Shown: positions 14,675 through 54,587, counted from the stretch's first letter. The stretch is DNA of 64,000 nt from Acidobacteriota bacterium (GCA_034666985.1 JAXDKS010000034.1:20889-84888); one strand, 5' to 3'. Notes: generated from the letters alone by a model not told the origin. Program-made: numbers and translations.

Positions 14675-15811
14675 ATGAACTCTAGTCTTGACTTTTCTGA
14701 ACTCACTCTGAGCCACCCTCACGATTTTTTTCGTGTAAAGCATGTGCCTGTTGAGCCCGGGACGTGCTTTGTGCTTATGCCCTTTTCGGAGGAATTCGCA
14801 ATCGTATTTGATGCAATCCAAGAAGCTCTAAGAGGGTTAATGGTATGTACGCGCGCCGATGACCTACTTCTTGGCGAATCTATTCTCGAACGTATACTTT
14901 TGGGGGTCGCCACTTCAGAATTAATAATTGCTGATCTTACTGGAAAGAATCCTAATGTATTTTACGAGCTCGCGATTGCTCATGCCAGAACGAAGAACGT
15001 CTTGCTCTTAGCACAAACCATAAAAGATGTGCCGTTTGATCTCCGCCCGTTCTTTTGCCACCGATATTCTGTCTCCTCGCGTGTAGGAATAGAGTCCTTG
15101 AAGACTGTTGTGCTCAAGGCGGCTCGAAAGGTGGTTTCTAAGCGATCCTCAAGACCCCTTGACAGTGCTATCACTCGGACCCAGCGTATTGTGGATTTCA
15201 TGGCGGACAAGCTCAAGCAGCCAGATGACTGTCGACAACTCGTCATTCGTATACAGGCAAGTATTTCGTCGTTGGGCAACTCGGCGCGTTTCGGTTTGCG
15301 AGGCCGTGAGAACAGGAAATATAACAGCCTCCTTGAGGAAGAGCGTGAGCTTCTAATTGAGCTGATCGAGCACGGGGCGAGCCTCCATGCTATCTTGTCA
15401 CCCCACCGCAGTATCTTAAGCCCTGAAGATAGTTCAGATGAGAGGTATGTTAGAATATCGAGAGTGATCTCCTTTCTAGAAAGGACGGATGATTGTCTGT
15501 CGAGATGTCAGGTGGCTTTGTCGCCGGTACGAAGCTCAAACCTACTTTTCTTTGGAGAGGAAATTCTATTCGAGGGGCACAAGACTGATGTCGAAAGGGG
15601 TTTCGGGTTGACTCTGATCTATACCGACCCTCACACACTACGGCTAAGGATCGGGGCATTTGACAAGCTCCTCGAGTCCGCTAAGCAGTTTACCTTAAAT
15701 CGATACAATACAAGACAAAAGAAGAGGGTTGACGGTTTGACGCTGAAGAAGGCGGCAATAAGAGGTCTCGAGGAAGCAAGGAGACCGGCACAAAATAGTG
15801 TTACGCCTTAA
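14675..15811 (+). CDS. Protein with an N-terminal nucleoside-2-deoxyribosyltransferase-like/SLOG-type Rossmannoid domain and an uncharacterised C-terminal domain
   Basis: CFVLMPFSEEFAIVFDAIQEAL..CTRADD...LIIADLTGKNPNVFYELAIAHARTKNVLLLA matches the NDT-like pattern (hhxMPF....RADD....ADhT..NPNVxYExGhAhA..K.Vhhh). Low-GC; adjacent to the TIR gene. Confidence 0.55.
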   Translation: MNSSLDFSELTLSHPHDFFRVKHVPVEPGTCFVLMPFSEEFAIVFDAIQEALRGLMVCTRADDLLLGESILERILLGVATSELIIADLTGKNPNVFYELAIAHARTKNVLLLAQTIKDVPFDLRPFFCHRYSVSSRVGIESLKTVVLKAARKVVSKRSSRPLDSAITRTQRIVDFMADKLKQPDDCRQLVIRIQASISSLGNSARFGLRGRENRKYNSLLEEERELLIELIEHGASLHAILSPHRSILSPEDSSDERYVRISRVISFLERTDDCLSRCQVALSPVRSSNLLFFGEEILFEGHKTDVERGFGLTLIYTDPHTLRLRIGAFDKLLESAKQFTLNRYNTRQKKRVDGLTLKKAAIRGLEEARRPAQNSVTP

Positions 15812-20800: not shown

Positions 20801-21270
20801 GCCTCCCCCCGGCCGCTGCCGAGCCTGAGCCAGACGTTCGCGGAAGCCCGTGAGGCGGCGGTCGCCCTCGATCTCCGAGACGGGGACGCGGATGCGCGCC
20901 AGCTCGCCGACGTTGGGGATCGCTCCCTGGTGGGCCCGTTTCCAGACCTCCTGGGCCACGAACGACCTCTCGGCCGAGCTGTCGAAGCCGTCGAGCACGG
21001 GCAGGAGCTGGTCCGAGCCGCGCAGGGCGTTGACGTTCACCACCTCGCCCGAGGCGAGCTTCGGGTCGAAACCGTCCAGAGCCTTGACCGTCGCCAGATA
21101 GGAGAGGATCAGGGCGAGCAGGACGACCAGACCAGCGGCGCCGAGGAGGACGGCCTCCCGGCCGCGGGACGGAGCGCCGGGCAGACCAGGCAGATGAAAG
21201 CCGCCGCCTCGGACGGGAGGAGAGCCGTCCCGGCGCTGGCGGTCGGCGGCGGTGCTGCGGGTCACGGCCA
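17855..21270 (-). CDS. Fused SEDS glycosyltransferase (FtsW/RodA family) and class B penicillin-binding protein transpeptidase
   Basis: A single continuous reading frame; start taken at MAVTRSTAAD (ATG 21270). About 10 TM SEDS region (..FLSSGRTAMFANFLILGML), then a TM helix and PBP dimerisation plus transpeptidase domains with STFK, SCN and KTGT motifs. Confidence 0.75.
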
Positions 21271-21297
21271 TGCGGGGGACCTCATGCGTGACGTGTT

Positions 21298-21461
21298 CCC
21301 ACTGTAGAGACGCCCCGTGGGGAACCCCGCGGGGCGTCTCTGGGGCGGCGACATCGGTTCGGCCTCCCAGACGCTCCGCGGGTGCGCTGGGGCAAGCGGG
21401 ACCTTCCTCTCCGCTTCGGAGACGCCCCACGGGGTACCCCGTGGGGCGTCTCTACAGTGGG
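21298..21461. repeat. Two copies of a 43-bp palindromic element in inverted orientation, separated by 78 bp, in the intergenic gap between the pkn stop and the rodA-pbp start
   Basis: CCCACTGTAGAGACGCCCCGTGGGGAACCCCGCGGGGCGTCTC at 21298..21340, and its near-identical reverse complement at 21419..21461. Each copy is internally palindromic. Confidence 0.6.
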
Positions 21462-36847: not shown

Positions 36848-37609
36848 ATGGATTCCCGAGCCGGGGACCGCTTCCCCCTCACCCGCCGCTCTGTGGTGGA
36901 GGCCACCCGCGATGCCGACCCCGACGTGCGCCGCCAGGGTTGGGAGTCCCTCGTGGCGTCTTACTGGCGGCCGGTCTACAAAGTGCTCCGGGTGCGCTGG
37001 CGTCTCGACCGCGAGGACGCCGAGGACCTCACCCAGGAGTTCTTCGCCTCGGCCCTGGTCAAGGGGACCTTCGAGCGGTACGATCCCGGGAAAGCCCGGT
37101 TCCGGACGTATCTCCGCACCTGCCTGGACGGTTTCGCCGCCAACGAGCGCAAGGCCGCCCGGCGCCTCAAGCGGGGAGGCGGGCAGTCGTTCCTCTCCCT
37201 GGACTTCGCGGGAGCGGAGGAGGAGCTGCGACGCTACGGAGCCGGCGAGGAGCTCGACGTGGAGGAGTACTTCCATCGCGAATGGGTGCGCGCGCTCTTC
37301 GGCCTCGCGGTCGAGGACCTGCGGCGCTGGAGCGAGGCCACGGGAAAGGCGGTCCACTTCCACCTCTTCGAGCGCTACGACCTCGAAGGTCCGGACGCGC
37401 CCGAGCGCCCCACCTATGCCGAGCTCGCCGCGGAGACGGGCCTGCCCGCCACCCAGGTGACCAACTACCTGGCGGCGGTGCGGCGGGAGCTCCGTCGGCT
37501 CGTCCTGGAGCGTCTGCGGGAGCTCACCGGCTCGGAGCGGGAGTTTCGCGACGAGGCACGGCTGATCCTGGGGATTGACCCCGTAAAATCGCCAGGAGGG
37601 CCGAAATGA
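36848..37609 (+). CDS. ECF-type RNA polymerase sigma factor
   Basis: Region 2 DAEDLTQEFF; region 4 HTH YAELAAETGLPATQVTNYLAAVRRELRR. Its stop overlaps the downstream kinase start (ATGA). Confidence 0.8.
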   Translation: MDSRAGDRFPLTRRSVVEATRDADPDVRRQGWESLVASYWRPVYKVLRVRWRLDREDAEDLTQEFFASALVKGTFERYDPGKARFRTYLRTCLDGFAANERKAARRLKRGGGQSFLSLDFAGAEEELRRYGAGEELDVEEYFHREWVRALFGLAVEDLRRWSEATGKAVHFHLFERYDLEGPDAPERPTYAELAAETGLPATQVTNYLAAVRRELRRLVLERLRELTGSEREFRDEARLILGIDPVKSPGGPK

Positions 37610-38625
37610 ACGGGATCTCCGACGCCGCGCTCCATCACCTGCGCGAGGTGGCCGACGAGCCGGACCTCTCGGGCACGCCCTACGAGATCGTCGAGACTCT
37701 GGGCCGCGGCGGCATGGGCACCGTCTATCTCGCCCGCGACCTCCGCCTCGACCGCGAGGTGGCCCTGAAGGTCGTCCAGCTCCCCGAAGGTACGGGCGAT
37801 CTGGAGCGCCTGCTGCGCGAGGCCCGCGTCCTGGCCCGGCTGGAGCATCCCGGCATCGTGCCCGTCCACGACGCCGGCCTGCTGCCTTGCGGTCGGGCCT
37901 TCTACGCCATGAAACGCGTCCGTGGCCAACAGCTCGATGAATACGCCCGTGCCGCGCCTCTCCCCGAGCGCCTGCGCGCCTTCGAACGCATCTGCGAGGC
38001 CGTGGCCTTCGCCCACGCTCACGGCGTGATCCACCGTGACCTCAAGCCCGAGAACGTCATGGTGGGTCCCTTCGGCGAAGTGCTGGTGATGGACTGGGGG
38101 GTGGCGAAGGTGGCCCCTCACCTGGTTGGAGCGTTTTGCTGTTCTCCCTCTTCTCCCGGTGATGAGGGCCTTGGGCGGGGACGCTCTGCGGCAAAGTTAG
38201 CGCTTATGGGGGCCAGGGGTGAGGGTTCGGGTGGGGGAACCGAGGCCGGCACCATCCTCGGTACTCCCGGCTACATGCCCCCCGAGCAGGAGCGTGGCGA
38301 GGTGGATCGCATCGACGAGCGCGCGGACGTCTGGGCTCTCGGGGCCCTCCTCGGCTTCCTTCTGAAAGGGAAGGAGCCGCCGCCCCGGCCTCTGGAGGCC
38401 ATCCGCCGGCGGGCCATGGCCACGGAGCCGGCGCAGCGCTACCCGCAGGTCGAGGAGCTGGCGGCGGACCTCTCCCGCTACCTCGCCGGGCTGCGCGTGG
38501 ACGCCCACCAGGAGACCGTGCTGGAGCGGGCCGGCCGCTTCGTCCGCCGCTACCGCACGCCCATCCTCCTGATCCTGGCCTACCTCGTCATGCGGGTGCT
38601 GCTGATTTTTTTCCTGGATCGTTGA
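37606..38625 (+). CDS. Ser/Thr protein kinase cotranscribed with the ECF sigma factor; C-terminal TM
   Basis: GRGGMGTVYLA..ALKVV, HRDLKPENVMV, MDWGVAK, GTPGYMPPE. Confidence 0.8.
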   Translation: MNGISDAALHHLREVADEPDLSGTPYEIVETLGRGGMGTVYLARDLRLDREVALKVVQLPEGTGDLERLLREARVLARLEHPGIVPVHDAGLLPCGRAFYAMKRVRGQQLDEYARAAPLPERLRAFERICEAVAFAHAHGVIHRDLKPENVMVGPFGEVLVMDWGVAKVAPHLVGAFCCSPSSPGDEGLGRGRSAAKLALMGARGEGSGGGTEAGTILGTPGYMPPEQERGEVDRIDERADVWALGALLGFLLKGKEPPPRPLEAIRRRAMATEPAQRYPQVEELAADLSRYLAGLRVDAHQETVLERAGRFVRRYRTPILLILAYLVMRVLLIFFLDR

Positions 38626-38691
38626 TTGGACATTTTTGATCGGACAGTTAAAGGGAATCCCGGGAACGTTGAACAGGACTTCCAGGAGGGA

Positions 38692-39055
38692 CATGCGAAT
38701 GAACAAACCGCTTTTTGGGCTGATCCTCGGTGGCATTCTCGGCGTTTTCGACGGACTGACGGCGCTCCTCTCGGCACCGGAGACCAGGACTCAGATCGCC
38801 AGCATCGTCGTCGGCTCGACCTTCAAAGGCCTCGTGGCCGGGCTGCTCATCGGCTTCTTCGCCCGCAAGGTGAAGTCGCTCCCCTTGTGCATCCTCTTCG
38901 GCTTGGCCGTGGGGGCGCTGTTCGCGTATTTCGTTACCCTGGGCACCCCTTATTTCTGGAAGATCATCCTGCCGGGCAGCGTGGTCGGGATCATCGTGGG
39001 CTACGCCACCCAGAAGCACCAGGAAACGCCAGCGGTCCAGAAGACGGCGACTTGA
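38692..39055 (+). CDS. Small integral membrane protein (4 TM)
   Basis: AGGAGGGAC upstream of MRMNKPLFGLILGGILG. Confidence 0.45.
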
Positions 39056-39087
39056 ATTACGATCCGGACAGGGAAAGGAGAACCAAC

Positions 39088-39654
39088 ATGGCACGCGAAG
39101 GATTCCATCTGCGCTGGCTCGCGGCGGCGGCCCTGCTGGCGGCGCTGGCGCTTCCCGGCGTCCAAGCCCAGGGCGCCCGGGGTGAGGACGTCTCGGACAA
39201 GGTCGACGCCCGCATCGCCTTCCACCTGCTCCAGGGCTTGGCGGGCGACTGGACCGGCACGGCGGGGAAGGACATTCCGGCCACGGTGACCTACCGGGTG
39301 GGCTCCAACGGCACGATCGTGACGGAGATGTTGTTTCCAGGTACCGACCACGAGATGATGACCGTGTACTACCTCGAGGGCAAGAACCTGGTGGCCAACC
39401 ACTACTGTGCCGTGGGCAATCAGCCCCACTACAAGCTCGACACCGCGAAATCGACCCTCAAGGAGCTGGTCTTCGCCTTCGACGGCGGCACCAATCTCGA
39501 GCCCAACAAGGACACGCACGTCCACGATGGCAGGATCGCCTTCGTCGATAAGGACAAGCTCGAAGCCTCCTGGTCCGCCTACGCTGGCGGCGAGAAGCGG
39601 GGCTCCCACGACTTCCACCTGACGCGGGCGGCGGGGAAGCAGCCCGCAAAGTAG
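39088..39654 (+). CDS. Secreted hypothetical protein
   Basis: RBS GGAAAGGAGAACCAAC ATG; signal peptide ..ALALPGVQAQG. Confidence 0.5.
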   Translation: MAREGFHLRWLAAAALLAALALPGVQAQGARGEDVSDKVDARIAFHLLQGLAGDWTGTAGKDIPATVTYRVGSNGTIVTEMLFPGTDHEMMTVYYLEGKNLVANHYCAVGNQPHYKLDTAKSTLKELVFAFDGGTNLEPNKDTHVHDGRIAFVDKDKLEASWSAYAGGEKRGSHDFHLTRAAGKQPAK

Positions 39655-39695: not shown

Positions 39696-42062
39696 CTACC
39701 GCGAGAACCCGGGATAGGGCACGACCTTGGCGTCCACTCCATCGGACGCGTGAAGGTCGGCCGCGGCCTGCGTCGCGTCCTGCTCGGAAGAGAAGGGTCC
39801 GAAGGCGACCGTGCAGACAGCGTGGCCGTTCTCCTCCCGGGGAAGGAGGAAGGCGCCCCGGCCGGAGAAACGGGCAAGCGCGCGAGCGGCGTCGATCCAG
39901 TCCTCGGAAGCGAACACCTGCACGATGGGAGAGCCCGCCGTCATCCGGGTCGGCGTTTCCCCGGCACGGGCCGCGTCGAGCCGGCAGGTTGCCGTGAGCC
40001 GCTGCCAGGTGGCGGGATCGATGATGGGGAAGGATGGGGTCGTCGGACTCGGGGTCGGCGTCGTGTCGAAGGAACCGGGGAACTGCGGGCCCGGGCTGCC
40101 GAGGGTCGGACCCGAGTCGGCGATGGGAGGACCCGGGCTGGCAATGTCCTGCGATCCCGTCGTGGCGACAGAGGCCGGCTCCGGCGCGGACCGCGAGCGG
40201 AGCAGGAACACCGAGAGACCGACTACCGCCACGGCGATCATGGCGGCCACGCCCATCCAATTCCCCCGGCGCTGGCCGGACCGGACCGGAGGCGGCGAGT
40301 GCGATCCAGGATAGGCGGCCGTACCAGCCGGCGGCGGAGGGGGCAAGGGCTGGGCCGCGGCCACGGCAGCAGGGAGCGGGGGACGAGGGGGAGCCACGGC
40401 CGTGGCGTCGCCGTCATCTTCATTGGCCTCGTCGCTCGGAGGCTGCGGAGCCGTGGGGAACGCGACGACCGTGGCGTTCAGATCGAAATCCCCCTTGCCT
40501 CCAGGCAGGAGCTGGAAATGGAGCCGCCGCAGCTCCTCGGGAGGCAGGCTCCGCGCCGGCTCCTCCGGCAACGGGTCCTGCCAGTAGGTGGGACGCACGA
40601 AGTTCGGACGGCCCAGGGAGATTGCGTACCGCCACTCCTCCTCGACGTAGGGCGAGCGCAGAGCGTTCCACGACCAGAAGAGCTGGAAGACGTCCGCCTT
40701 CTGGATCAGATCTTTCAGCCGGTCGTTCCATACCTCGCCCGCGCGCAACTCGTGGACGTCCCGCAGATAGCGGTCGCCGAGGGTGCGGGCATAGCGCTCG
40801 AATTCCTCGACGATGCCGGCGTCCCGATGGGAGTACGATGGGAAGATGTTGCGGAACGGCCGGCTCGCGACCCGCTCAGTCGGCACGGACGGAGGCGCCG
40901 GGCCGCTGGCGATCCGGGCATCGACCCGGATGGCGAGGCTGACCTCGGCCAGGATGATGCTCCCCCAGAACACGCTCATCCGGCCGCGGACGGCCGTGCC
41001 TGCGAGCTCCGGCCCGGCCCGGATCCGGAACTCCTCCCGATGCACGGACTCCAGCCACAGGAACGTCCGCCGGGGCGGATTGACCTCGAACCCCGGGATC
41101 TCCGGCACGAACGTGATCTCCGCCTCATGGGGGATGGCGTAGCGGCTGTCCTGCTTGACGTCCGCATACCCCTGAGCCATGTCGCCGAGGATCTTCCGGG
41201 CCTGCGCCCGCACTTCCTCGACCGGGTCCGGCTCATCCGCCGGAGCGTCTGGCGGCAGCTCCTCCAGATGGGCGAACGCCAGCAGCGGAAACCACTTCAA
41301 CGGCTCCACCGCCCGCGGGCGGTACACCGTGAACTGGACGTTCTCGTGAAGAGGGAGCGCCTTGTCGGGAGGAACGTGGGCCGGCGAAGGCTCGGGCGCC
41401 GGAGCCGACACCGGAGCGAGTAGGGGAGCCTCCCTGGCCAAACCCTGTTCCTGGATCGCCTTCCAAAGATCCTCCAGAACCCGCTCGGCAAAAGCATCCA
41501 ACCGAGCCGCCCGGCCGAGACCATCGCTCCAACCGCAGGAATAGCCGTCCAGGACCGGCCGTCCCGAAGCCCGGATGCGATCCTTCAGCTTGGTGAGGCG
41601 GGAAGCTGCCGCTTCATTCTCAGGAAGGAACCGTTCCCGCTGCGCCTCGGGAACCGACAAGGGGAACCGGCGGTCCCTGAAATAGAAGAAGCTCCGGGTC
41701 TTACCCGGCTCGCGAAGAGCCCCCTGAAGGATCTCGAGCTCCACCATGCTCCGGCCGGGGTCCTCCGCCAGCCAGGGCTGCGCCGCCACCAGAGCCAGAG
41801 GGACCGCCGCCGGAGGCTCGCCATACCGCTCCCCCAGCAGCCCCACGAAGATCTGGCACCCCTCGATCTCCCGGAACCGCCGCGCCAGGTCCCACTCCTC
41901 CCCCTTGACCTTGGCAGGATCGACGACGACGATCTCGATCCCCAGCCTCTGCGCCCGCTCCCGGAGCTCGGGCAGGACGAGGCCCTCGATGACGGCGCGT
42001 TCGCCGTCCATCTCCCCGGGGAGGGATGCGAGGTAGAGGCGGAGGGGAGAGGGAGGAGGCAT
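39696..42062 (-). CDS. Multidomain protein: N-terminal DUF4062-like domain, central TIR domain, single TM helix and C-terminal SPOR (peptidoglycan-binding) domain
   Basis: DUF4062-like LYLASLPGEMDGERAVIEGLVLPELRERAQRLGIEIVVVD..IFVGLLGERYG. TIR: IFPSYSHRDAGIVEEFERYARTLG...DVFQLFWSWNALRSPYVEEEWRYAI. TM: WMGVAAMIAVAVVGLSVFLL. SPOR: VQVFASEDWIDAARALARFSGRGAFLLP..AVCTVAFGPFSSEQDATQAAADL. Confidence 0.65.
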   Translation of the reverse strand: MPPPSPLRLYLASLPGEMDGERAVIEGLVLPELRERAQRLGIEIVVVDPAKVKGEEWDLARRFREIEGCQIFVGLLGERYGEPPAAVPLALVAAQPWLAEDPGRSMVELEILQGALREPGKTRSFFYFRDRRFPLSVPEAQRERFLPENEAAASRLTKLKDRIRASGRPVLDGYSCGWSDGLGRAARLDAFAERVLEDLWKAIQEQGLAREAPLLAPVSAPAPEPSPAHVPPDKALPLHENVQFTVYRPRAVEPLKWFPLLAFAHLEELPPDAPADEPDPVEEVRAQARKILGDMAQGYADVKQDSRYAIPHEAEITFVPEIPGFEVNPPRRTFLWLESVHREEFRIRAGPELAGTAVRGRMSVFWGSIILAEVSLAIRVDARIASGPAPPSVPTERVASRPFRNIFPSYSHRDAGIVEEFERYARTLGDRYLRDVHELRAGEVWNDRLKDLIQKADVFQLFWSWNALRSPYVEEEWRYAISLGRPNFVRPTYWQDPLPEEPARSLPPEELRRLHFQLLPGGKGDFDLNATVVAFPTAPQPPSDEANEDDGDATAVAPPRPPLPAAVAAAQPLPPPPPAGTAAYPGSHSPPPVRSGQRRGNWMGVAAMIAVAVVGLSVFLLRSRSAPEPASVATTGSQDIASPGPPIADSGPTLGSPGPQFPGSFDTTPTPSPTTPSFPIIDPATWQRLTATCRLDAARAGETPTRMTAGSPIVQVFASEDWIDAARALARFSGRGAFLLPREENGHAVCTVAFGPFSSEQDATQAAADLHASDGVDAKVVPYPGFSR

Positions 42063-42199: not shown

Positions 42200-42973
42200 A
42201 TGAGCGTCCTTCCGCTCGAACAGGAGATTGAATACCCCACCTCCGACGGCCAGCCCATGGCCGAGACCCCTCTTCATCGGAAGGTGATGAACGACCTCAT
42301 CGGGGGCTTGGAGGACCGTTACGCCCAGGAGCCAGACGTCTGGGCTGGAGGCAACCTCTTCCTTTGCTACGAGGAAGGCAACCCGGCGGCGTGCGTGGCC
42401 CCGGACGTGCTGCTGGCCAAGGGGGTGCCGAAGTGGGACCGGCCGAACTATCTCCTCTGGGAGGAAGTGCCGCCCAGCTTGGTGGTGGAGATCACGTCGA
42501 AGAAGACCCGGCGGGATGACCAGGGCAAGAAGAAGTCGCTCTACGAGCGGCTTGGCGTCGAGGAGCTGGTCCTGTTCGATCCCTACGGAGAGTACCTGCG
42601 GCCGCGGCTCCAGGGTTACCGGCTCGTCAAGGGGCATTATCAACCGGTCCCCCTGGAGCAGGACGGGGCATTCCTGAGCCAGACGACAGGCCTGCTCTTC
42701 CACCCTGAGGGGAAGCGATTACGGCTGGTGGATGCCGTCACCGGAGAGCGGTACCTGTGGCGCGAGGAGTCCGAAGCGGCCCGGAAGGCAGAAGCCGCCG
42801 CCCGTCGGGCCGCGCAGAGAAGAGCCGCCAAGGAGGCCGCCGCCCGCCAGGCTGCGGAGGCGAGAGCTGCGGAAGCGGAGGTGAAGGCCGCTGAAGAGGC
42901 GGCAGCTCGACAGGCCGCCGAAGAGCAGGTTCGGGCCTTGAAAGCGGAACTGGACCGGCTGCGGAAGGGCTGA
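42200..42973 (+). CDS. Uma2-family (DUF820) PD-(D/E)XK endonuclease with a Lys/Ala/Glu-rich coiled-coil tail
   Basis: EYPTSDGQPMAETPLH...APDVLL..G..E..PSLVVEITSKKTRRDD..KKSLYERLGVEELVLFDP is the Uma2 restriction-endonuclease-like core. Confidence 0.75.
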   Translation: MSVLPLEQEIEYPTSDGQPMAETPLHRKVMNDLIGGLEDRYAQEPDVWAGGNLFLCYEEGNPAACVAPDVLLAKGVPKWDRPNYLLWEEVPPSLVVEITSKKTRRDDQGKKKSLYERLGVEELVLFDPYGEYLRPRLQGYRLVKGHYQPVPLEQDGAFLSQTTGLLFHPEGKRLRLVDAVTGERYLWREESEAARKAEAAARRAAQRRAAKEAAARQAAEARAAEAEVKAAEEAAARQAAEEQVRALKAELDRLRKG

Positions 42974-42991: not shown

Positions 42992-44788
42992 CTAGGGAGG
43001 AGTCAGAGGCTTGGTGACGAACGCCGCACGCCAGTCAGCCTGCTCCAAGAGTTGGATTTGGCAAAAATACTCCGCCTGGGCGCCCAGTTCCTTGGAGGAC
43101 ATCGCCCTCTTGGAGCTCAACAAACTGGTCAGCAAAGCACTCAACCTCGCTCGCAAGGCTTTGGAGCGCCGGAAAATTCGCTCAAACTCGCCCTGATGGG
43201 AAATGCCTTCAACGGCGGCACCGACAGCCGGCAGGACGACCGCACAGAGGCTCAGCAGGAGGATTGCAGCGGCGGCGACAAATTTACCCAGCCGGGGATC
43301 TGCTTCTTCACCAAGCCACAGGTGAACAAGGCACGCCACTAGAGTGGCGGGGAAAAGCCATTTTACCACTAGCGAATGCAGACGATGGTGTGCGAGCTCC
43401 ATCCTCGCGGAGGTCTCCGCGTGGTACTTGACCTGCCCCTTCACCGCGTCCGCGAGCACTTGACGATAGGTTTCCAGGAAGGCTGCATCCATTCTTGAAG
43501 AAACCATCCCTAACTCACGAGCAATCGCTCGAAAGTACCAATTGAACCAAGTCCTGCCGGGATCTTCTTCGAGGTGTGCAGGGACTTCAAAGGCAGGAGT
43601 CACCCGAGCAAGGGGTATCAGGTACTGCATCTGCCTGAAGCCTTCGGCGAGAAGCCGATAATCGATCCATCGCTCATGGAGATGGAAGCGCTGGTTCCCC
43701 AGCCACACCAAGATCAATATGGCGGTGATCAACACCAGCTCAACCCAAAACGCATCGTGGTACCCTTCTTTGTAGATACCGAAGAAGGCTGAGAATACGG
43801 CAGCGGCGCCGAGCCCATAGGTTAGGATGAACAGACTGCGATAGATATCTCCATAAGTATTGGCGAGATCGTCTGCGCGCTTTAAATGAATCTGGCAGCC
43901 ATTAAGAAGCTTATGCCCTATACGGCTGTTGGGTTCCTCAAGGCTGGCCCAACGATCCTCCGCCGGCTGATCGCCACCGTTTAGGCCATTGTTGCCTGTC
44001 TCTTCGAGGCGCTTTTCCCAACCACGGGCGATGAAATTGCGGAACGTTTTGTAGATCGGTATCGGCTTGGGCTGCTTCTCCCCGAGAAATCGCTCCAGAG
44101 GCTTGGGACTGACGTCCGTTGGCATCTCGAAGATAGGTTTTAGACGATTCAAGAGATGGCCGAGATCCGTTTTTCTTGGGGGTTCCCCAGGATTCGTACC
44201 TCGTTCCAAGAGGCAGATCTCGTGCTCTGGACGGGAATTGATCCAGATGATTGGAATGCTTCGAGAGAGCGCTTCGGTGGCCACAGCCCCCGGATCCCCT
44301 TTTTCTCCCTGCTCGCCGTTCCACACAGCGATGAGTACATCGCACTGACGTAGAACGGCCTGTCCCACGGTCTCACGTGCTGCAGGCTTGTCATCCGAGG
44401 AACCATCCAACTCGACCTTTACCGAATCAAGACCCCAAAGATCATCGAAGATCTCATGCCATTCTGCGGTCAGGAACTTCTTCCTGTATTCCTCATGCGC
44501 TACGGATAAGAGGCACTGCAGCTCAAATTTCTGCTGAATGGCCTCACGCGTGACTACCAGTTCGGCTCCTTCTCCCAAAGGAGAGATGATGCGCATCGTC
44601 GGGTTCTCGCTTATGTATAATCCCTTGCAGGGACTACGGAGATCGCCGGCGCATTCACGGAGTTTTTTGAGAGCTTCTTGAATTTTTTTAATGAGGAGTT
44701 CATTGGATGTCTCGGAACGCAAATCGCAGCCCGTTACGCCGACGCGTACAACCAGTCGTGTTCCCGTCGATGGTCTTTTCTGTATCAT
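42992..44788 (-). CDS. SLOG-domain protein fused to a 4-TM (tandem 2TM, SLATT-like) membrane effector region
   Basis: N-terminal Rossmannoid SLOG-like domain (RVGVTGCDL...ISPLGEGAELVVTREA...CDVLIAVWNGEQGEKGDPGAVATEA), paralogous to the upstream gene. Two pairs of TM helices separated by a soluble helical segment. GC about 52%. Confidence 0.6.
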   Translation of the reverse strand: MIQKRPSTGTRLVVRVGVTGCDLRSETSNELLIKKIQEALKKLRECAGDLRSPCKGLYISENPTMRIISPLGEGAELVVTREAIQQKFELQCLLSVAHEEYRKKFLTAEWHEIFDDLWGLDSVKVELDGSSDDKPAARETVGQAVLRQCDVLIAVWNGEQGEKGDPGAVATEALSRSIPIIWINSRPEHEICLLERGTNPGEPPRKTDLGHLLNRLKPIFEMPTDVSPKPLERFLGEKQPKPIPIYKTFRNFIARGWEKRLEETGNNGLNGGDQPAEDRWASLEEPNSRIGHKLLNGCQIHLKRADDLANTYGDIYRSLFILTYGLGAAAVFSAFFGIYKEGYHDAFWVELVLITAILILVWLGNQRFHLHERWIDYRLLAEGFRQMQYLIPLARVTPAFEVPAHLEEDPGRTWFNWYFRAIARELGMVSSRMDAAFLETYRQVLADAVKGQVKYHAETSARMELAHHRLHSLVVKWLFPATLVACLVHLWLGEEADPRLGKFVAAAAILLLSLCAVVLPAVGAAVEGISHQGEFERIFRRSKALRARLSALLTSLLSSKRAMSSKELGAQAEYFCQIQLLEQADWRAAFVTKPLTPP

Positions 44789-44805
44789 TTATGTCCTCAT
44801 TTCGC

Positions 44806-45477
44806 TCAGCTCATGCCGCGCGCAGTCAAGACTCTTCCGATCGCTTCGGAGAGTCCGTTCATCGAATCGTATAAGAGAGGAGCAATCGACCTTAGTAGAA
44901 AAATCTCCTCGTGGGGTCGTACCCATACAGTAGTAATTCCTCGTGCGATGGCTTCTTTCACGATTTGCCCTGTACCACCCTGTCCTGCCGGAGATTGACC
45001 ATTCCATATAGCGATCAGGATGTCAGAGTGGAGAAGGACCCATCGACCCACCTCCTCGTAAGCTTTGTTTTCATGCTCGCGGGAACCCGCCAGCTCAATG
45101 ACTTGCGTGGTACGCTCTAACAGAGCATGAAACGCCGTCTTGGATTCTGGGATCGTGAAATCCTTCTCGTACTCCTGGCGTGAGAAAGGCAGCGGGCTCT
45201 GAAGCTCATAGCCAAGCATCAATCCTTCTTCAGCTACGATGCGATCGGCACCTTCGGCGAGAGGTGAGACGACTTTGAGGAGGAGCTCTTCTCTGACGTC
45301 TGGATGCCGTTCAGAGAGCCGACGAGCGATCTCCTTGACCTGGGCCAGGACTTTACGGACCGATCCTCTCAAAAGCGCCTGGTCGTATCCCGCTTCGGAT
45401 AAGCCTTTGGTCCGATGGCCGGTGACGCCGACTCGGAGTGTCGGCGGTGAGCCGAGTGGACTCTCCTGTGAGACCAT
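44806..45477 (-). CDS. Standalone SLOG-domain protein (LOG/YpsA-like Rossmannoid nucleotide-binding fold)
   Basis: LRVGVTGHR..VVSPLAEGADRIVAEE...HSDILIAIWNGQSPAGQGGTGQIVKEAIARGI; the GGTG motif is as in the LOG/SLOG PGGxGT motif. It is the first gene of an operon with the SLOG-SLATT gene. Confidence 0.6.
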   Translation of the reverse strand: MVSQESPLGSPPTLRVGVTGHRTKGLSEAGYDQALLRGSVRKVLAQVKEIARRLSERHPDVREELLLKVVSPLAEGADRIVAEEGLMLGYELQSPLPFSRQEYEKDFTIPESKTAFHALLERTTQVIELAGSREHENKAYEEVGRWVLLHSDILIAIWNGQSPAGQGGTGQIVKEAIARGITTVWVRPHEEIFLLRSIAPLLYDSMNGLSEAIGRVLTARGMS

Positions 45478-52171: not shown

Positions 52172-53335
52172 ATGCTACCTTTGCCTGAGATCGGAAGGCG
52201 CATTAGAACCCTCCGTGAGGAGTTGGATATCCCGCGGGCCGACCTCGCTGCGGCGTGCGGCGTCGCGGAAGCCGTTATTGAGCAGCTTGAAGCCGGTCGG
52301 CTAGAGCAGGTGCCCGGGGACTACATACTCATCGTTGCCCGTCTCCTTAAGGTAGACTTCCGCTGGTTCATCTCCGAAGATCTCGATGGGATTGAACAGG
52401 GGACTAGGAGGATTTTTAGGGCTCTCTCTCAGGGTACTTCACGGGATCGTGTTGCTATAAGGCGCTTCGTTGGCTTCTGTTTAAACGAAAGCGAGCTTGA
52501 GAAGCTACTCGGTATCCACAGAATTTCTTTGCCTGTGGTTTATCCCGCGCCCGAATCGAGGCGACAGCTCTATAAGGAGCAGGGTCCGGCAGCCGCGCGG
52601 GCAGAGCGGGTTAGGCTGAATCTAGGCCTTAAGCCGATCTTTAATGTGTTCTCCATAATAAGATCCCAAGGATTGAGACTGAGCCGGCAGAAGCTCGACA
52701 GCAAGGAAATCTCTGGTTTAACTGTCTTTCATCCCCGCGCGGGAACGGCGATCCTTGTGAACTACGAAGAGGATATGTATCGGCAGTTCTTCTCTGCTGC
52801 CCACGAATACGCTCATGCTCTCTTTGATGGGCGAGAGTTGGAGGAAAAGAGAGTCCTAGTCTCCTACAAGAAGGTCTATGATTGGACCGAGATTCGCGCG
52901 AACACCTTTGCCGCTGAATTTCTGCTACCGCAAGAAGCGCTTGCCCAGTATGCGCGGCCTCGAGACCTTTCGTCGCTAACAGCCATCATTGACCAGATTG
53001 CCCGAGATTACCGCGTTAACACTGAGACTGTTGCTATTCGCGCCAAAGAGGTTGGCTGGATTTCTGATAAGACGCTGAGTTCGTTTAGAGAAAAGAAACC
53101 AATTGTGATTCCGAGGGCAGATAAGCAAGATCCTGAGCTATCAGATGATCTGACTTCCCTGCAGGTCGAACGCTGGAAAGCACTGATCGCACAGGGCGTC
53201 AGCGTTTATTATGCGGAGCTATGCCGCCGTGCTCTTACAAGTGACCTTATAACTTTCGGGAGATTTGCGGAATTGCTGGATCTCACTCCAGAAGAGGCTT
53301 CTGAATTCATCCAGATGGCAGGGCTGGCTTTATGA
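52172..53335 (+). CDS. XRE-type HTH regulator fused to an ImmA/IrrE-family (DUF955) metallopeptidase domain
   Basis: N-terminal HTH (IGRRIRTLREELDIPRADLAAACGVAEAVIEQLEAGR). HEXXH in AAHEYAHALF. GC about 50%. Confidence 0.75.
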   Translation: MLPLPEIGRRIRTLREELDIPRADLAAACGVAEAVIEQLEAGRLEQVPGDYILIVARLLKVDFRWFISEDLDGIEQGTRRIFRALSQGTSRDRVAIRRFVGFCLNESELEKLLGIHRISLPVVYPAPESRRQLYKEQGPAAARAERVRLNLGLKPIFNVFSIIRSQGLRLSRQKLDSKEISGLTVFHPRAGTAILVNYEEDMYRQFFSAAHEYAHALFDGRELEEKRVLVSYKKVYDWTEIRANTFAAEFLLPQEALAQYARPRDLSSLTAIIDQIARDYRVNTETVAIRAKEVGWISDKTLSSFREKKPIVIPRADKQDPELSDDLTSLQVERWKALIAQGVSVYYAELCRRALTSDLITFGRFAELLDLTPEEASEFIQMAGLAL

Positions 53336-53871
53336 GAGTGATCGGTGCTGTCAGCGGTTGGATGCTGGACAGCTCGACTTTCATAAACGCTCTCGTCGTG
53401 AAGAAGGTGTGGATATTGTCGGCAATTCGAACGCCGCTGTTCCTTCCGGAGTACGTATTCCGAATCGAGCTCGGCACAGGGGCGCGGCGAGAGACTCGCC
53501 ACGAGGCTCAGGCCTTGGTTTCACGAGGCCAAGCCTGCATCGAACATCTTACACTCGGGGATCTCGATCGGATTGCCGAACTATGCGCGCCGAAGCGTAT
53601 AGGCATTGGTGAGATTTGCTGCGCGGTCATCGCTGAACGATCTGATCGCGGCGTGCTTTGCGACGATTACAAGGCGCATCGGTGGCTTTGTGAGCGTGTC
53701 GGAGTGGCGGAGTGGGAGTCGATCGAGGAAATCCTAGTGGCTGGGGGAATCGCGAACTACCTTAGCGAATATGACGTCGAAGATTGCCAAGGGCTTCTTA
53801 CGAAGAATAGATACAGATGCAAGTATGATCTTCGCCTAGAGCTCTTACGGTGTCGAAATTCACCTGAGTAA
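53332..53871 (+). CDS. DUF4411-like PIN-fold protein, translationally coupled to the ImmA/IrrE gene
   Basis: ATGA overlap; N-terminal MLDSSTFINAL and later acidic clusters (..IGIGEICCAVIAERSDRGVLCDDYKA) are consistent with the PIN-like DUF4411 that typically follows DUF955 genes. Confidence 0.5.
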   Translation: MRVIGAVSGWMLDSSTFINALVVKKVWILSAIRTPLFLPEYVFRIELGTGARRETRHEAQALVSRGQACIEHLTLGDLDRIAELCAPKRIGIGEICCAVIAERSDRGVLCDDYKAHRWLCERVGVAEWESIEEILVAGGIANYLSEYDVEDCQGLLTKNRYRCKYDLRLELLRCRNSPE

Positions 53872-53877
53872 CGTGGC

Positions 53878-54225
53878 TCAGAGAGGAAGAAACTCCACCC
53901 GATCCGAGAAGTCGGCCGGATCTGCTACTTGGGCGATCAACTCCAGATCACGGACACAGTCCCCGATCGTGACATGGAGTTGATGAGCGAAGATGACTCC
54001 GGGAAAGGAGCGGCCTTCGGTCTGTCGTTTTCTGGCTTCGGCCAGCAGGTCCTCGTCCTGCGAGAAGAGCACCCTTCCAAGTGCGGCAGCCCGGTCCAGC
54101 ACTGCGGGATCGTCTATTCCGGACCGACCATCCTCCTGGACGGCAAGGACATCGATTCCTCGGAGACGCAGTCCACTGGTGATGGCCCGATGGACGTTTT
54201 CGTCCATGTAGAGGATGAGTCCCAA
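53878..54225 (-). CDS. DUF5615-family PIN-like toxin
   Basis: ILYMDENVHRAITSGLRLRGIDVLAVQEDG..DDPAVLDRAAALGRVLFSQDEDL. Confidence 0.7.
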   Translation of the reverse strand: MGLILYMDENVHRAITSGLRLRGIDVLAVQEDGRSGIDDPAVLDRAAALGRVLFSQDEDLLAEARKRQTEGRSFPGVIFAHQLHVTIGDCVRDLELIAQVADPADFSDRVEFLPL

Positions 54226-54228
54226 GTC

Positions 54229-54555
54229 TCAGTCCGCTCGATTTTGACTGCGGACCTTGGCGGCCAAGAGGGAAGGCCCGGCCTCGCGCCGGGCGGCTTC
54301 GGCGTACTGGGACCTGCGGTCGATGTCCGCGTCAAGCTCCTCTTGGTGATCCCAGTAGTAGGCCAGCGCGGAGTGGATCTGCCCCAAGCTCAGATCGGGG
54401 TGCTGGAAGTGGATCTCCTCCGGGCTCCAGCCGTGGGCTCTTTGTCCCATGACGAGCTCGACGACCTTCATCGTGGTTCCGGAAATGATGGGGTTCCCTC
54501 TGTCATCGTGTTCCACGTGAGGGTAGGTGGCGGGGGCTCTGAGTGGTGCGCTCAT
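54229..54555 (-). CDS. DUF433-family antitoxin partner of DUF5615
   Basis: ..GNPIISGTTMKVVELVMGQRAHGWSPEEIHFQHPDLSLGQIHSALAYYWDH. Confidence 0.7.
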   Translation of the reverse strand: MSAPLRAPATYPHVEHDDRGNPIISGTTMKVVELVMGQRAHGWSPEEIHFQHPDLSLGQIHSALAYYWDHQEELDADIDRRSQYAEAARREAGPSLLAAKVRSQNRAD

Positions 54556-54587
54556 GCTTGGTCTCCTAAGTGAAGTCTAACCCAAAA

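What the first reader, a model, noticed from the sequence alone, without database searches (positions are those of the whole stretch)
39696..42062. Unusual DUF4062-TIR-TM-SPOR protein: a cytoplasmic TIR module tethered to a periplasmic septal-peptidoglycan-binding domain
Seen in sequence, a single 788-aa ORF reads in order:
- a DUF4062-like N-domain (LYLASLPGEMDGERAVIEGL...IFVGLLGERYG);
- an about 300-aa unassigned region;
- a TIR_2-like domain (IFPSYSHRDAGIVEEFERYA...LFWSWNALRSPYVEEEW);
- one TM helix;
- a C-terminal SPOR-like domain (VQVFASEDWIDAARALARF...AVCTVAFGPFSSEQDATQAAADL).

Established knowledge: SPOR domains bind denuded glycan at division septa. TIR and DUF4062 modules occur in conflict/NTPase-type defence proteins.

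Inference: an NADase or signal-generating module coupled to a sensor of cell-wall or septal state, possibly triggered by phage-induced envelope damage or lysis. I do not know this combination as a described system.
Basis: partly seen in the sequence, partly recalled or inferred. Interest (0 to 1): 0.75.

Follow-up and report, generated by a model that had tools for sequence, protein, structure and literature searches.

The report
Membrane TIR/NIR sensor of Thoeris-like operon
The 788-residue protein is real and built as described: two NAD-cleaving-type domains inside the cell are tethered by one membrane helix to a cell-wall-binding SPOR domain outside, and it is the last gene of a conserved operon with a nucleotide-sensing membrane-pore-type protein, so it looks like a new wall-connected variant of the Thoeris family of bacterial immune signalling systems.

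Summary
**Observation: confirmed.** The ORF lies on the minus strand (39696-42062, 788 aa).
- TIR_2 scores 50 bits (cut-off 28).
- SPOR scores 25-29 bits (cut-off 21).
- The N-domain is just below the Pfam DUF4062 cut-off, but matches the solved human TEP1 DUF4062/NIR NADase domain at E = 4.5e-23.
- There is one TM helix (602-621).

**New findings.**
- The "unassigned" middle holds a confidently folded beta-sandwich, here called X (about 238-386). It has no Pfam model. It precedes this TIR subtype in all 228 relatives checked. The family has about 1,500 clusters and is usually fused to kinases.
- The gene closes a conserved operon: SLOG (223 aa), then SLOG-DUF4231/SLATT 4TM (598 aa), then this gene. 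A Uma2 gene is inserted on the other strand.
- Relatives of the 4TM protein in many phyla are followed by TIR, DUF4062 or SIR2 genes. Nine are TIR-TM-DUF4189.

**Best reading (confidence 0.5).** A Thoeris-like system, closest to type VII and to the unvalidated "SLOG and 4TM" candidate of Yirmiya et al. 2025. Its NADase-type signal generator is membrane-anchored and carries a periplasmic peptidoglycan-binding domain.

**What is not shown.** Whether SPOR senses wall damage or only anchors the protein is untested. No defence function is shown.

**Verdict.** New variant of a known kind; interest 0.62.

The parts
39696..42062 (-). Whole gene, 788 aa: NIR(DUF4062) - linker - X beta-sandwich - TIR_2 - Pro-rich linker - TM - Pro/Ser/Thr linker - SPOR
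   Evidence: ORF and translation. Pfam hits. Orthologues 55-84% identical in Thermoanaerobaculia MAGs.
41448..42044 (-). N-terminal NIR/DUF4062 TIR-like NADase-type domain, aa 7-205. Candidate catalytic Glu in 'GRSMVELEI' (E108/E110).
   Evidence: phmmer against PDB hits the TEP1 NIR domain 11gz_A at E = 4.5e-23 over 7-205; E108 and E110 align with TEP1 E-M-E. Pfam DUF4062 scores 21.4 bits, below cut-off. The second Glu is kept in distant orthologues P0034, P0035, P0039 and P0061.
40905..41351 (-). X domain, aa about 238-386: unannotated beta-sandwich with one long helix, obligately N-terminal to this TIR subtype
40443..40856 (-). TIR_2 domain, aa about 403-540, with invariant Glu476 in 'SPYVEEEW'
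   Evidence: Pfam TIR_2 50 bits, E = 5e-13. A family profile hits the TIR domains of Cat1 and 9m0n, with E476 aligned to the Glu of their S-x-W-[CV]-x-x-E motif, which from my own knowledge is the TIR catalytic Glu. E476 is invariant in 20 of 20 diverse family members.
40200..40259 (-). Single transmembrane helix, aa 602-621 (WMGVAAMIAVAVVGLSVFLL)
   Evidence: Kyte-Doolittle 19-residue maximum of 2.58; the only segment above 1.6. The helix is conserved in 30 orthologues, with more K/R on the N-side, 87 against 56.
39699..40025 (-). Periplasmic C-terminal module, aa 680-788: a helix carrying invariant C693, then the SPOR domain (Pfam 712-781) carrying invariant C750
   Evidence: Pfam SPOR 25 bits in the whole protein and 29.2 bits alone; 14 of 20 orthologous C-termini hit SPOR, best 6.4e-10. 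The only PDB profile hits are RlpA SPOR domains, and they are weak (E = 0.5). The invariant Cys pair is seen.
42200..42973 (+). Uma2-family (putative restriction-endonuclease-like) gene inserted on the opposite strand between the effector gene and the TIR gene. Probably not a core part. The start at M59 of the ORF is inferred.
   Evidence: Pfam Uma2 69 bits. PADLOC PDC-S03 candidate models, E = 1.9e-8. The same insertion is in L009 at 65% identity and is absent in L001, L006, L008 and L089.
42992..44788 (-). 598-aa predicted effector: N-terminal YpsA-like SLOG domain (with degenerate motifs) plus four TM helices (DUF4231 + SLATT-type)
44806..45477 (-). 223-aa stand-alone SLOG paralogue with intact family motifs (GVTGHR, LAEGADR, GGTGQ); first gene of the operon
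   Evidence: 34% identical to the N-terminus of the 598-aa protein, E = 9e-28. Motif comparison. Orthologues sit in the same position in L001 and L009.

Best explanation
The 788-aa protein is the membrane-anchored, NAD+-processing component of a Thoeris-like signalling system.

**Anatomy (shown).**
- The cytoplasmic part carries two TIR-fold NADase-type domains. One is an N-terminal NIR/DUF4062 domain. The other is a TIR_2 domain, always preceded by a dedicated beta-sandwich (X).
- One TM helix and a Pro/Ser/Thr-rich linker place a disulfide-stabilised SPOR domain in the periplasm.
- Upstream, on the same strand, lie a stand-alone YpsA-like SLOG protein and a SLOG-4TM (DUF4231 + SLATT-type) protein.

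**Proposed mechanism (inferred).**
1. A trigger clusters or re-arranges the sensor. The preferred trigger is a change in peptidoglycan seen by SPOR: denuded glycan strands made by phage or host amidases and lysins. A cytoplasmic phage component seen by X or NIR is the alternative.
2. TIR-fold enzymes are active only as oligomers, so clustering switches on NAD+ cleavage or cyclisation.
3. An ADP-ribose-derived product (a cADPR-type molecule) is bound by the SLOG domains.
4. The SLATT 4TM protein oligomerises and permeabilises the inner membrane, giving growth arrest or death of the infected cell.

**Shown:** domain identities, conserved catalytic-type Glu residues, topology indicators, operon conservation.
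**Inferred:** enzymatic activity, the ligand, the trigger, the defence role.
For: **Domains.** TIR_2 scores 50 bits, and the invariant E476 aligns to the TIR motif Glu. The NIR domain matches the TEP1 NADase domain at E = 4.5e-23, with the Glu pair conserved. SPOR is above the Pfam cut-off and is recognised in 14 of 20 orthologues.

**Operon in close relatives.** The SLOG-4TM gene sits directly upstream and co-oriented.
- L001: genes of 224, 601 and 809 aa; the first two overlap by 1 bp and the next gap is 7 bp.
- L006: 616 aa then 818 aa.
- L008: 571 aa then 837 aa.
- L009: same order as the window.
- L089: 630 aa then 459 aa.
- Nine further pairs share a contig length between the two hit lists.

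**Across phyla.** Of 52 downstream ORFs next to relatives of the 4TM protein, 18 have TIR_2, 4 have SIR2_2, 3 have DUF4062 and 3 have the CAP12/Pycsar TIR. Nine have DUF4189; the TIR-TM-DUF4189 layout was confirmed in L003, L013 and L033.

**Literature.**
- DUF4062/NIR hydrolyses NAD+ in defence systems (10.64898/2026.05.01.722283; 10.64898/2026.09.04.749371).
- TIR+SLATT is type VII Thoeris, signalling by cADPR, and 'SLOG and 4TM' is listed as a candidate effector (10.64898/2025.12.03.692087, Table S2).
- YpsA-clade SLOGs are implicated in cADPR sensing, and SLATT is predicted to be an ADPr-derivative-gated membrane effector (PMC9503650).

**The outside domain matters.** Sister proteins have LysM, OmpA, TonB_C or PEGA after the TM instead of SPOR.
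Against: - No enzymatic or phage data exist for this family. The two 'SLOG and 4TM' operons tested by Yirmiya et al. gave no defence in E. coli.
- PADLOC and NCBIfam do not recognise the three genes as a system.
- The locus sits at a conserved chromosomal position in Thermoanaerobaculia, with flanks PRC, MOSC, amine oxidase and DUF6498. It looks vertically inherited rather than carried on a mobile element. It is absent from IMG/VR.
- Orthologous loci exist where the X-TIR cassette is missing: NIR-TM-SPOR only, in L089, P0055 and P0056. The TIR is therefore dispensable for the pairing, and which domain makes a signal is unclear.
- The X-TIR module is mostly fused to Ser/Thr kinases and Hsp70-like ATPases, with no SLOG-SLATT nearby in the one case examined (L090). 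It may be an adaptor rather than an enzyme.
- In the window an opposite-strand Uma2 gene interrupts the operon.
- I could not compare the effector with ThsH or the 'SLOG and 4TM' sequences. Only IMG ids are given.
Confidence: 0.5

Rival explanations
1. Same Thoeris-like system, but SPOR is only a tether or localiser that places the protein at septal or denuded peptidoglycan. It is not the sensor. Infection is sensed in the cytoplasm by the X beta-sandwich or the NIR domain, as in ordinary ThsB, Avs or Swarozyc proteins that bind phage proteins.
For: - Known NIR and TIR defence proteins are activated by cytoplasmic phage proteins: portal, terminase, lambdap79.
- X is a conserved, dedicated domain fused to the TIR in every relative. 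That is what a built-in regulatory or sensing domain would look like.
- Partners of the same SLOG-4TM family include soluble NIR-NACHT-TPR (L014) and TIR-NACHT (L004) proteins with cytoplasmic sensor repeats.
Against: - The periplasmic module is well conserved, with an invariant Cys pair.
- In sister proteins it is replaced by other wall or envelope-binding domains rather than lost.
- The TIR-TM-DUF4189 layout recurs independently next to the same effector family.
- A mere membrane anchor would not need a folded wall-binding domain.
Confidence: 0.25
2. It is not an anti-phage system. It is a housekeeping or stress pathway of Thermoanaerobaculia that links cell-wall or septal state to NAD/ADP-ribose signalling and membrane permeability. 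Candidate roles are a division checkpoint, envelope-stress suicide or a developmental switch.
For: - The syntenic chromosomal position is conserved across several genera-level relatives, which suggests vertical inheritance.
- There is no hit in viral contigs and no PADLOC system call.
- SPOR domains are septal by established knowledge.
- The X-TIR module is embedded in many kinase, FHA and Hsp70 signalling proteins.
Against: - The effector cassette is compositionally foreign: GC 0.55 against 0.70 for the TIR gene.
- It has been exchanged or has diverged fast: 49% identity where the TIR protein is 84% identical.
- The site collects toxin-antitoxin and Uma2 insertions.
- Relatives of the effector pair with Avs-like NIR/TIR-STAND proteins and sit next to an Apyc1-like gene in L004.
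- All of these are typical of conflict systems.
Confidence: 0.15
3. The 788-aa protein is a self-contained NAD+-depleting effector, with two NADase domains switched on by envelope damage. The neighbouring SLOG/SLATT genes form an independent system that merely shares a defence hotspot.
For: - NIR domains act as NAD+-depleting effectors, not signal generators, in all systems characterised so far.
- In the window the genes are separated by an opposite-strand Uma2 gene.
- L005 has the SLOG-4TM gene without any TIR/NIR neighbour.
- L007 and L090 have relatives of the sensor without the SLOG-4TM gene.
Against: - Gaps between the two genes are tight, 7 to 70 bp, and they are co-oriented in L001, L006, L008 and L089.
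- Relatives of the 4TM protein are recurrently paired with TIR, SIR2 or NIR genes across phyla: at least 25 of 52 downstream ORFs.
- A SLOG sensor with no cognate nucleotide generator would be unexplained.
Confidence: 0.1

Closest known systems
Type VII Thoeris (ThsB TIR + ThsH SLATT effector, cADPR signal; Yirmiya et al. 2025, bioRxiv 10.64898/2025.12.03.692087)
   Same: A TIR-domain gene lies next to a SLATT-type membrane effector gene in one operon. The predicted logic is the same: a TIR product gates a membrane-breaching oligomer.
   Different: - Here the effector carries an N-terminal YpsA-like SLOG domain and four TMs (DUF4231 + SLATT_1-type).
- There is an extra stand-alone SLOG gene.
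- The TIR protein is a 788-aa multi-domain membrane protein with an additional NIR domain, an X domain and a periplasmic SPOR domain, not a small soluble ThsB.
- Homology of the effector to ThsH was not tested, because no sequences were available.
'SLOG and 4TM' candidate Thoeris effector (same preprint, Tables S1/S2; Streptomyces sp. GKU 895, Ca. Nitrospira nitrosa)
   Same: The description matches the 598-aa protein: a SLOG domain plus four TM helices encoded next to a TIR gene.
   Different: - The candidate is unvalidated. Both operons tested gave no defence in E. coli.
- The listed TIR partners are ordinary TIR domains. None is described with NIR, X, TM or SPOR.
- Sequence identity to the window's effector could not be checked.
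Type I Thoeris ThsA (SIR2-SLOG) and YpsA-clade SLOG sensors
   Different: The output is a 4TM SLATT-type module rather than a SIR2 NADase. The fused SLOG has lost the family motifs, which an extra stand-alone SLOG retains.
NIR/DUF4062 defence proteins (Swarozyc, Evangelion, Vulcan, Vesta, NIR-Avs) and the human TEP1 NIR domain
   Same: The N-terminal 205 residues are a clear member of this domain family (E = 4.5e-23 to the TEP1 structure), with the Glu motif kept.
   Different: - Described NIR proteins are soluble. They are fused to HEAT, STAND or auxiliary regions and act as NAD+-depleting effectors.
- None is described with a second TIR domain, a TM helix, a periplasmic domain or a SLOG-SLATT partner. 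No such terms occur in the three preprints.
SPOR-domain division proteins (FtsN, DedD, DamX, RlpA)
   Same: A single-pass or anchored envelope protein with a C-terminal periplasmic SPOR domain after a flexible Pro-rich linker. This bitopic N-in/C-out layout resembles FtsN and DedD.
   Different: The cytoplasmic part is 600 residues of NADase-type domains instead of a short tail. An extra N-terminal helix and a conserved Cys pair flank the SPOR domain. Glycan binding is untested.
Toll-like / IL-1 receptors (analogy only)
   Same: The architectural logic is shared: an extracellular ligand-binding domain, one TM helix and a cytoplasmic TIR domain.
   Different: The orientation is opposite: type II, with TIR N-terminal to the TM. 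The ectodomain is unrelated. Animal TLR TIRs are scaffolds, whereas this one keeps the catalytic Glu. No homology beyond the TIR fold is implied.

Membership tests
TIR domain (Pfam TIR_2, STIR clan) | Match to the family HMM above the curated cut-off | tested here: met
   50 bits against a cut-off of 28, E = 5e-13, residues 406-495. TIR_2 was found in 54 of 55 family representatives.
TIR domain (Pfam TIR_2, STIR clan) | Conserved catalytic glutamate of NAD+-cleaving TIRs (S-x-W-C-x-x-E position) | tested here: met
   E476 is invariant in 20 of 20 diverse members. It aligns with the Glu of 'SDWCWDE' in Cat1 and of 'SEWVKKE' in 9m0n.
TIR domain (Pfam TIR_2, STIR clan) | NAD+ hydrolase or cyclase activity | not testable with these tools
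   Needs biochemistry.
NIR / DUF4062 TIR-like NADase | Match to Pfam DUF4062 above the curated cut-off | tested here: not met
   21.4 bits against a cut-off of 24.7 for this protein. Orthologues and L029/L014 partners do pass: 31-56 bits.
NIR / DUF4062 TIR-like NADase | Significant full-domain similarity to an experimentally characterised member | tested here: met
   phmmer to the TEP1 NIR domain structure 11gz_A: E = 4.5e-23, residues 7-205 against 6-216.
NIR / DUF4062 TIR-like NADase | Catalytic glutamate (E97 KpSwz, E108 PsAvs2, E1008 TEP1) | tested here: inconclusive
   Query E108 and E110 align with TEP1 E-M-E. E110 is kept in distant orthologues. Which TEP1 Glu is E1008 could not be fixed from the chain numbering.
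SPOR domain | Match to Pfam SPOR above the curated cut-off | tested here: met
   25 bits in the whole protein and 29.2 bits for the isolated C-terminus, against a cut-off of 21. 14 of 20 orthologues match, best 6.4e-10.
SPOR domain | RNP-like beta-alpha-beta-beta-alpha-beta fold | not tested
The only support is sequence-level: the sole PDB profile hits are RlpA SPOR domains, and they are weak, E = 0.5.
SPOR domain | Extracytoplasmic location | tested here: inconclusive
   The indicators all point outward. There is a single TM after 600 residues with no signal peptide. The K+R bias is 87 against 56. An invariant Cys pair lies in the C-terminal part. No dedicated topology predictor or experiment was available.
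SPOR domain | Binding to denuded (amidase-processed) glycan strands | not testable with these tools
   Needs binding assays.
Thoeris-type TIR signalling system | TIR gene in a conserved operon with an effector carrying a ligand-sensing domain | tested here: met
   The SLOG-4TM gene lies directly upstream in the window, L001, L006, L008, L009 and L089, and nine more pairs share a contig. The SLOG fold is confirmed. Relatives of the effector are followed by TIR, SIR2 or NIR genes across phyla.
Thoeris-type TIR signalling system | Protection against phage, dependent on the TIR catalytic Glu | not testable with these tools
   The two 'SLOG and 4TM' candidates tested by Yirmiya et al. were negative in E. 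coli.
Thoeris-type TIR signalling system | Enrichment next to known defence genes | tested here: inconclusive
   PADLOC gives no system hits; only the Uma2/PDC-S03 candidate and generic kinase models match. TA modules vary at the site. L004 has an Apyc1-like gene, WYL and a TIR-NACHT gene nearby. There are no viral-contig relatives.
SLATT membrane effector (for the 598-aa partner) | Match to SLATT/DUF4231 HMMs above cut-off | tested here: inconclusive
   The window protein scores 22.8 bits on DUF4231, below the 24.7 cut-off. Homologues at 33-36% identity pass SLATT_1 (29.0 and 33.7 against 26.3) and DUF4231 (25.4).
ZU5/UPA (FIIND) autoproteolytic domain (for domain X) | Fold match clearly above generic beta-sandwiches | tested here: inconclusive
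ZU5/UPA (FIIND) autoproteolytic domain (for domain X) | H-F-S / S-F-S type cleavage motif with a Ser/Thr/Cys nucleophile | tested here: not met
   The invariant motif is L-A-F-A-H-L, and the conserved E-I-T-F is followed by V/L. No conserved nucleophile follows either Phe.

The most novel reading that the evidence does not exclude
This is a bacterial 'receptor-type' TIR pathway. A Thoeris-like immune signal generator (TIR plus NIR) would be gated from outside the cytoplasm by a peptidoglycan-binding ectodomain. Damage or remodelling of the wall, such as phage lysins or amidase-denuded glycans, would be transduced across the membrane into an NAD-derived second messenger that opens a SLOG-SLATT pore. 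The recurrence of TIR-TM-ectodomain partners next to the same effector family (SPOR, LysM, OmpA, TonB_C, PEGA, DUF4189) would make outside-in TIR signalling a general, overlooked mode in bacteria.
Probability: 0.3. Interest if true: 0.85.

Novelty: new variant of a known kind. Interest (0 to 1): 0.62.

Why it matters
All characterised Thoeris, NIR and TIR defence proteins sense infection inside the cytoplasm. A signal generator wired to a periplasmic peptidoglycan-binding domain would add envelope surveillance to NAD-derived immune signalling. It would also give a bacterial counterpart, in logic, to ectodomain-TM-TIR receptors.

The locus offers several concrete handles:
- a protein with two different TIR-fold NADase-type domains, which makes it testable which one signals and which one depletes;
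- an unannotated beta-sandwich domain that defines a TIR subfamily of at least 1,500 clusters, mostly fused to kinases;
- a SLOG-4TM effector class that has been predicted but never validated, here with a natural duplication that separates an intact SLOG from a degenerate one.

If it proves ordinary, it still extends the catalogue of Thoeris-like configurations to Acidobacteriota.

Tried and rejected
- **PADLOC and NCBIfam.** On the 788-aa protein they gave only a weak TIR sub-match and nothing, respectively. PADLOC gave nothing for the two SLOG proteins.
- **Paralogues in the window.** tblastn of the protein against the window found no second copy of any of its domains.
- **X against PDB by sequence profile.** Only a chance hit, E = 0.2.
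- **Single-sequence TIR search against PDB.** It gave a spurious ribosomal eL13 hit. A family profile was needed.
- **Profile of the 598-aa family against PDB sequences.** Nothing. Only the fold search identified SLOG.
- **afdb50 fold library.** Not available.
- **IMG/VR scans.** No relatives of the effector or of X.
- **My first taxonomic guess.** I thought Planctomycetota, from sulfatase and CarboxypepD_reg neighbours. I dropped it once the hits named Thermoanaerobaculia/Acidobacteriota.
- **'TIR is the obligatory partner of SLOG-4TM in this lineage'.** Rejected, because orthologous loci carry NIR-TM-SPOR without X-TIR.


Full report

Yes. The window holds a 788-codon ORF at 39696-42062, on the minus strand, starting with ATG.

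Pfam results on the whole protein:
- TIR_2 at residues 406-495: E = 5e-13, 50 bits, cut-off 28.
- SPOR at 712-781: 25 bits, cut-off 21.
- DUF4062 at 33-83: 21.4 bits, just under the 24.7 cut-off.

The weak DUF4062 call is rescued decisively. Residues 7-205 match the solved DUF4062/NIR domain of human TEP1 (PDB 11gz_A) at E = 4.5e-23.

There is a single strongly hydrophobic helix at 602-621. The gene has the high GC3 (0.84) of its neighbours. A 100% identical protein and a series of full-length orthologues at 55-84% identity exist, named by their sources as Thermoanaerobaculia/Acidobacteriota MAGs.

**2. Anatomy**

- **NIR/DUF4062 domain, about 1-205.** 'GRSMVELEI' aligns with TEP1 'GRSVTEMEV'. 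The second Glu (E110) is kept in distant orthologues.
- **Pro/Ala linker.**
- **TIR_2 domain, about 403-540.** Its invariant E476 aligns with the Glu of the conserved S-x-W-C-x-x-E motif in Cat1 and another solved TIR. From my own knowledge, that position is the catalytic Glu of NAD+-cleaving TIRs.
- **Pro-rich linker, TM 602-621, Pro/Ser/Thr linker.**
- **C-terminal module, 680-788.** 14 of 20 orthologues hit Pfam SPOR (best 6.4e-10). The only PDB profile hits are RlpA SPOR domains, and they are weak (E = 0.5). Two cysteines, C693 and C750, are invariant.

**3. Topology**

- There is no signal peptide, and 600 residues precede the only TM helix.
- Flanking K+R totals are 87 (N-side) against 56 (C-side) over 30 orthologues.
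- The invariant Cys pair occurs only in the C-terminal part.
- Sister proteins carry LysM, OmpA, TonB_C or PEGA after their TM helix.

All of this points to TIR-in/SPOR-out.

**4. Modular evolution**

- Among the 120 best homologues, X and TIR always occur together (115 of 115).
- Architectures are N-X-TIR (50), X-TIR with other partners (36), N-X-TIR-SPOR (25), N-SPOR without X-TIR (5), X-TIR-SPOR (3) and a double X-TIR (1).
- An exhaustive profile search with X alone finds 1,982 cluster representatives at E <= 1e-3, and 1,517 at <= 1e-10.
- In 113 of 113 new representatives, X is immediately followed by this TIR.
- In a sample of 55, partners are Ser/Thr kinases (25), Hsp70-like ATPases (9), WD40 repeats and others.
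- The NIR domain is present in only 3 of the 113, and SPOR in none.

So X-TIR is a large, unannotated, promiscuous two-domain cassette. The window's architecture is a small branch of that family.

**5. Context: the key result**

On the same strand, directly upstream, lie a 223-aa gene (44806-45477) and a 598-aa gene (42992-44788).

*The two upstream proteins*
- The N-terminus of the 598-aa protein is a paralogue of the 223-aa protein (34% identity, E = 9e-28).
- AlphaFold models the 598-aa protein with pLDDT 92.7: an alpha/beta domain plus long helices. I count four hydrophobic TM segments in the helical half from its sequence.
- The membrane half gives a sub-threshold DUF4231 hit here (22.8 bits). 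Homologues at 33-36% identity pass DUF4231 for TM1-2 and SLATT_1 for TM3-4.

*Conservation of the gene order*
- L001: genes of 224, 601 and 809 aa; the first two overlap by 1 bp and the next gap is 7 bp.
- L006, L008 and L089 have the pair.
- L009 has the same arrangement as the window.
- Nine further pairs share a contig length between the two hit lists.

*Two qualifications*
- In the window and in L009, a Uma2 gene on the opposite strand is inserted between effector and sensor.
- L089 carries SLOG-4TM followed by NIR-TM-SPOR without X-TIR, at the same syntenic site. The constant partner in this lineage is therefore the NIR-...-TM-SPOR protein.

**6. Wider survey**

- The SLOG-4TM family has more than 524 relatives in species-representative genomes of many phyla.
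- Of 52 co-oriented downstream ORFs of at least 190 aa, 18 have TIR_2, 14 TrkA_N (3 of them with RyR), 9 DUF4189, 4 SIR2_2, 3 DUF4062 and 3 the CAP12/Pycsar TIR.
- Nine downstream ORFs carry DUF4189. TIR-TM-DUF4189 was confirmed directly in L003, L013 and L033. This is again a TIR tethered to an extracytoplasmic, Cys-rich domain.
- Other partners are DUF4062-NACHT-TPR (L014), TIR_2-NACHT beside an Apyc1-like gene (L004) and NIR-X-TIR-2TM in a Pyrinomonadaceae MAG (L029).

The recurrent pairing of this effector with NAD+-processing domains is what a nucleotide-signalling system predicts.

**7. Literature**

- Three 2026 preprints show that DUF4062 (NIR) is a TIR-like NADase used in anti-phage systems and in TEP1, with a catalytic Glu. 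None mentions TM, SPOR, SLOG or SLATT.
- Yirmiya et al. (2025) define type VII Thoeris as TIR + SLATT effector signalling through canonical cADPR. They list 'SLOG and 4TM' among candidate effectors. The two operons they tested did not protect E. coli.
- Iyer et al. (2022) place cADPR-sensing SLOGs in the YpsA clade. They describe SLATT as a predicted ADPr-derivative-gated membrane effector.
- No paper in the library contains both 'SPOR domain' and 'TIR domain'.

**8. Most likely mechanism**

I rate this reading at 0.5: a Thoeris-like system in which the 788-aa protein is the NAD+-processing signal generator and the SLOG/SLOG-4TM proteins are receptor and effector.

- **Shown:** domain identities, conserved catalytic-type residues, topology indicators, operon conservation.
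- **Inferred:**
  - activation by oligomerisation;
  - an ADPR-derived messenger;
  - SLOG binding and SLATT pore formation;
  - a defence role;
  - most speculative, that SPOR reports peptidoglycan damage rather than merely anchoring the protein.

Rivals:
- SPOR as anchor, with cytoplasmic sensing by X or NIR (0.25).
- A non-defence link between wall or division state and NAD signalling (0.15). This is supported by vertical inheritance at a fixed chromosomal site and by the YpsA resemblance.
- A stand-alone NAD+-depleting effector unrelated to its neighbours (0.10).

**9. Arguments for a conflict system**

- The SLOG genes are compositional outliers: GC 0.55 against 0.70 for the TIR gene.
- The effector is only 49% identical in L001, where the sensor is 84% identical. 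That suggests cassette exchange or fast evolution.
- The site accumulates TA and Uma2 insertions.

**10. Arguments against**

- There is no PADLOC system call.
- There are no viral-contig relatives.
- Yirmiya et al. obtained negative results for the candidate type.

**11. Verdict**

This is a new variant of a known kind: a Thoeris-like TIR/NIR + SLOG-SLATT system.

Three features are, as far as I could find, undescribed:
- the membrane-anchored sensor with a periplasmic peptidoglycan-binding domain;
- NIR and TIR together in one protein;
- the X domain.

Noticed in passing
window 44806-45477 and 42992-44788; L001, L009 versus L006, L008, L089, L003-L005: Where a stand-alone SLOG gene is present, the SLOG fused to the 4TM protein has lost the family motifs: GVTGHR becomes GVTG-CD, LAEGADR becomes LGEGAE, and GGTGQ becomes KGDPG. 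The stand-alone copy keeps them. Loci without the extra gene keep intact motifs in the fused SLOG. This looks like duplication followed by subfunctionalisation.
   Followed up: partly
window 42992-45477 versus 39696-42062: The two SLOG genes have GC 0.55 (GC3 0.57-0.61). The TIR gene has GC 0.70 (GC3 0.84) and the window 0.66. The L001 sensor is 84% identical to the query but its effector only 49%. This suggests the effector cassette was exchanged or evolves much faster.
   Followed up: partly
window 13434-14453 (+) and 14675-15811 (+): A second, unrelated TIR locus lies in a low-GC island (GC about 0.52). It has a 339-aa protein with a canonical C-terminal TIR (TIR_2 73 bits; MyD88/TIRAP-type PDB hits). 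It is followed by a 378-aa protein whose N-terminus looks, by eye only, like a nucleoside-2-deoxyribosyltransferase or 'CMP hydrolase' domain, as in type VIII Thoeris effectors.
   Followed up: partly
window 42200-42973 (+); L009 8509-9282 (-): A Uma2-family gene (PADLOC candidate PDC-S03) is inserted on the opposite strand between effector and sensor genes. The same insertion is in the closest relative L009 at 65% identity. It is absent from L001, L006, L008 and L089.
   Followed up: partly
P0029 and P0241-P0353 (relatives, not in the window): The X-TIR cassette is fused mainly to Ser/Thr kinases (25 of 55) and Hsp70/MreB-like ATPases (9 of 55). There are a few fusions to WD40 repeats and to T6SS parts (ImpA_N, VipA/VipB). 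One protein, P0029, has two identical-type X-TIR modules flanking a kinase.
   Followed up: partly
L005 (4541-5938 and 6001-7902): A Thermoanaerobaculia locus, at a site with some of the same flanking genes, has a 465-aa protein and then SLOG-4TM, with no TIR/NIR gene adjacent. The 465-aa protein has an NDT-like N-terminus (by eye) plus TPR repeats, reminiscent of the type VIII effector ThsI.
   Followed up: no
L004, L035, L053 and 11 other loci: TrkA_N (+/- RyR) membrane proteins are the second most common neighbour of SLOG-4TM genes (14 of 52 downstream ORFs). They may be a second, channel-type effector, as with the 'ion channel' type X Thoeris.
   Followed up: no
window 36848-39654 (+): An ECF-type sigma factor (Sigma70_r2) and a 339-aa Ser/Thr kinase, followed by ORFs of unknown function, converge on the 3' end of the TIR gene. 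The sigma-kinase pair is also next to the locus in L005 and L006.
   Followed up: no
window 17855-21430 (-): A 1191-aa ORF fuses an FtsW/RodA (SEDS) glycosyltransferase domain with a penicillin-binding transpeptidase domain.
   Followed up: no
window 52172-54573 (+): Another low-GC stretch (0.54) encodes an HTH + Peptidase_M78 (ImmA/IrrE-like) protein followed by two small ORFs with no Pfam hit. This is typical of mobile-element or defence regulators.
   Followed up: no
L007 1404-5921: The most distant SPOR-bearing orthologue examined (P0035, 42% identical) has a 1505-aa protein with no confident Pfam domain upstream, instead of SLOG-4TM.
   Followed up: no
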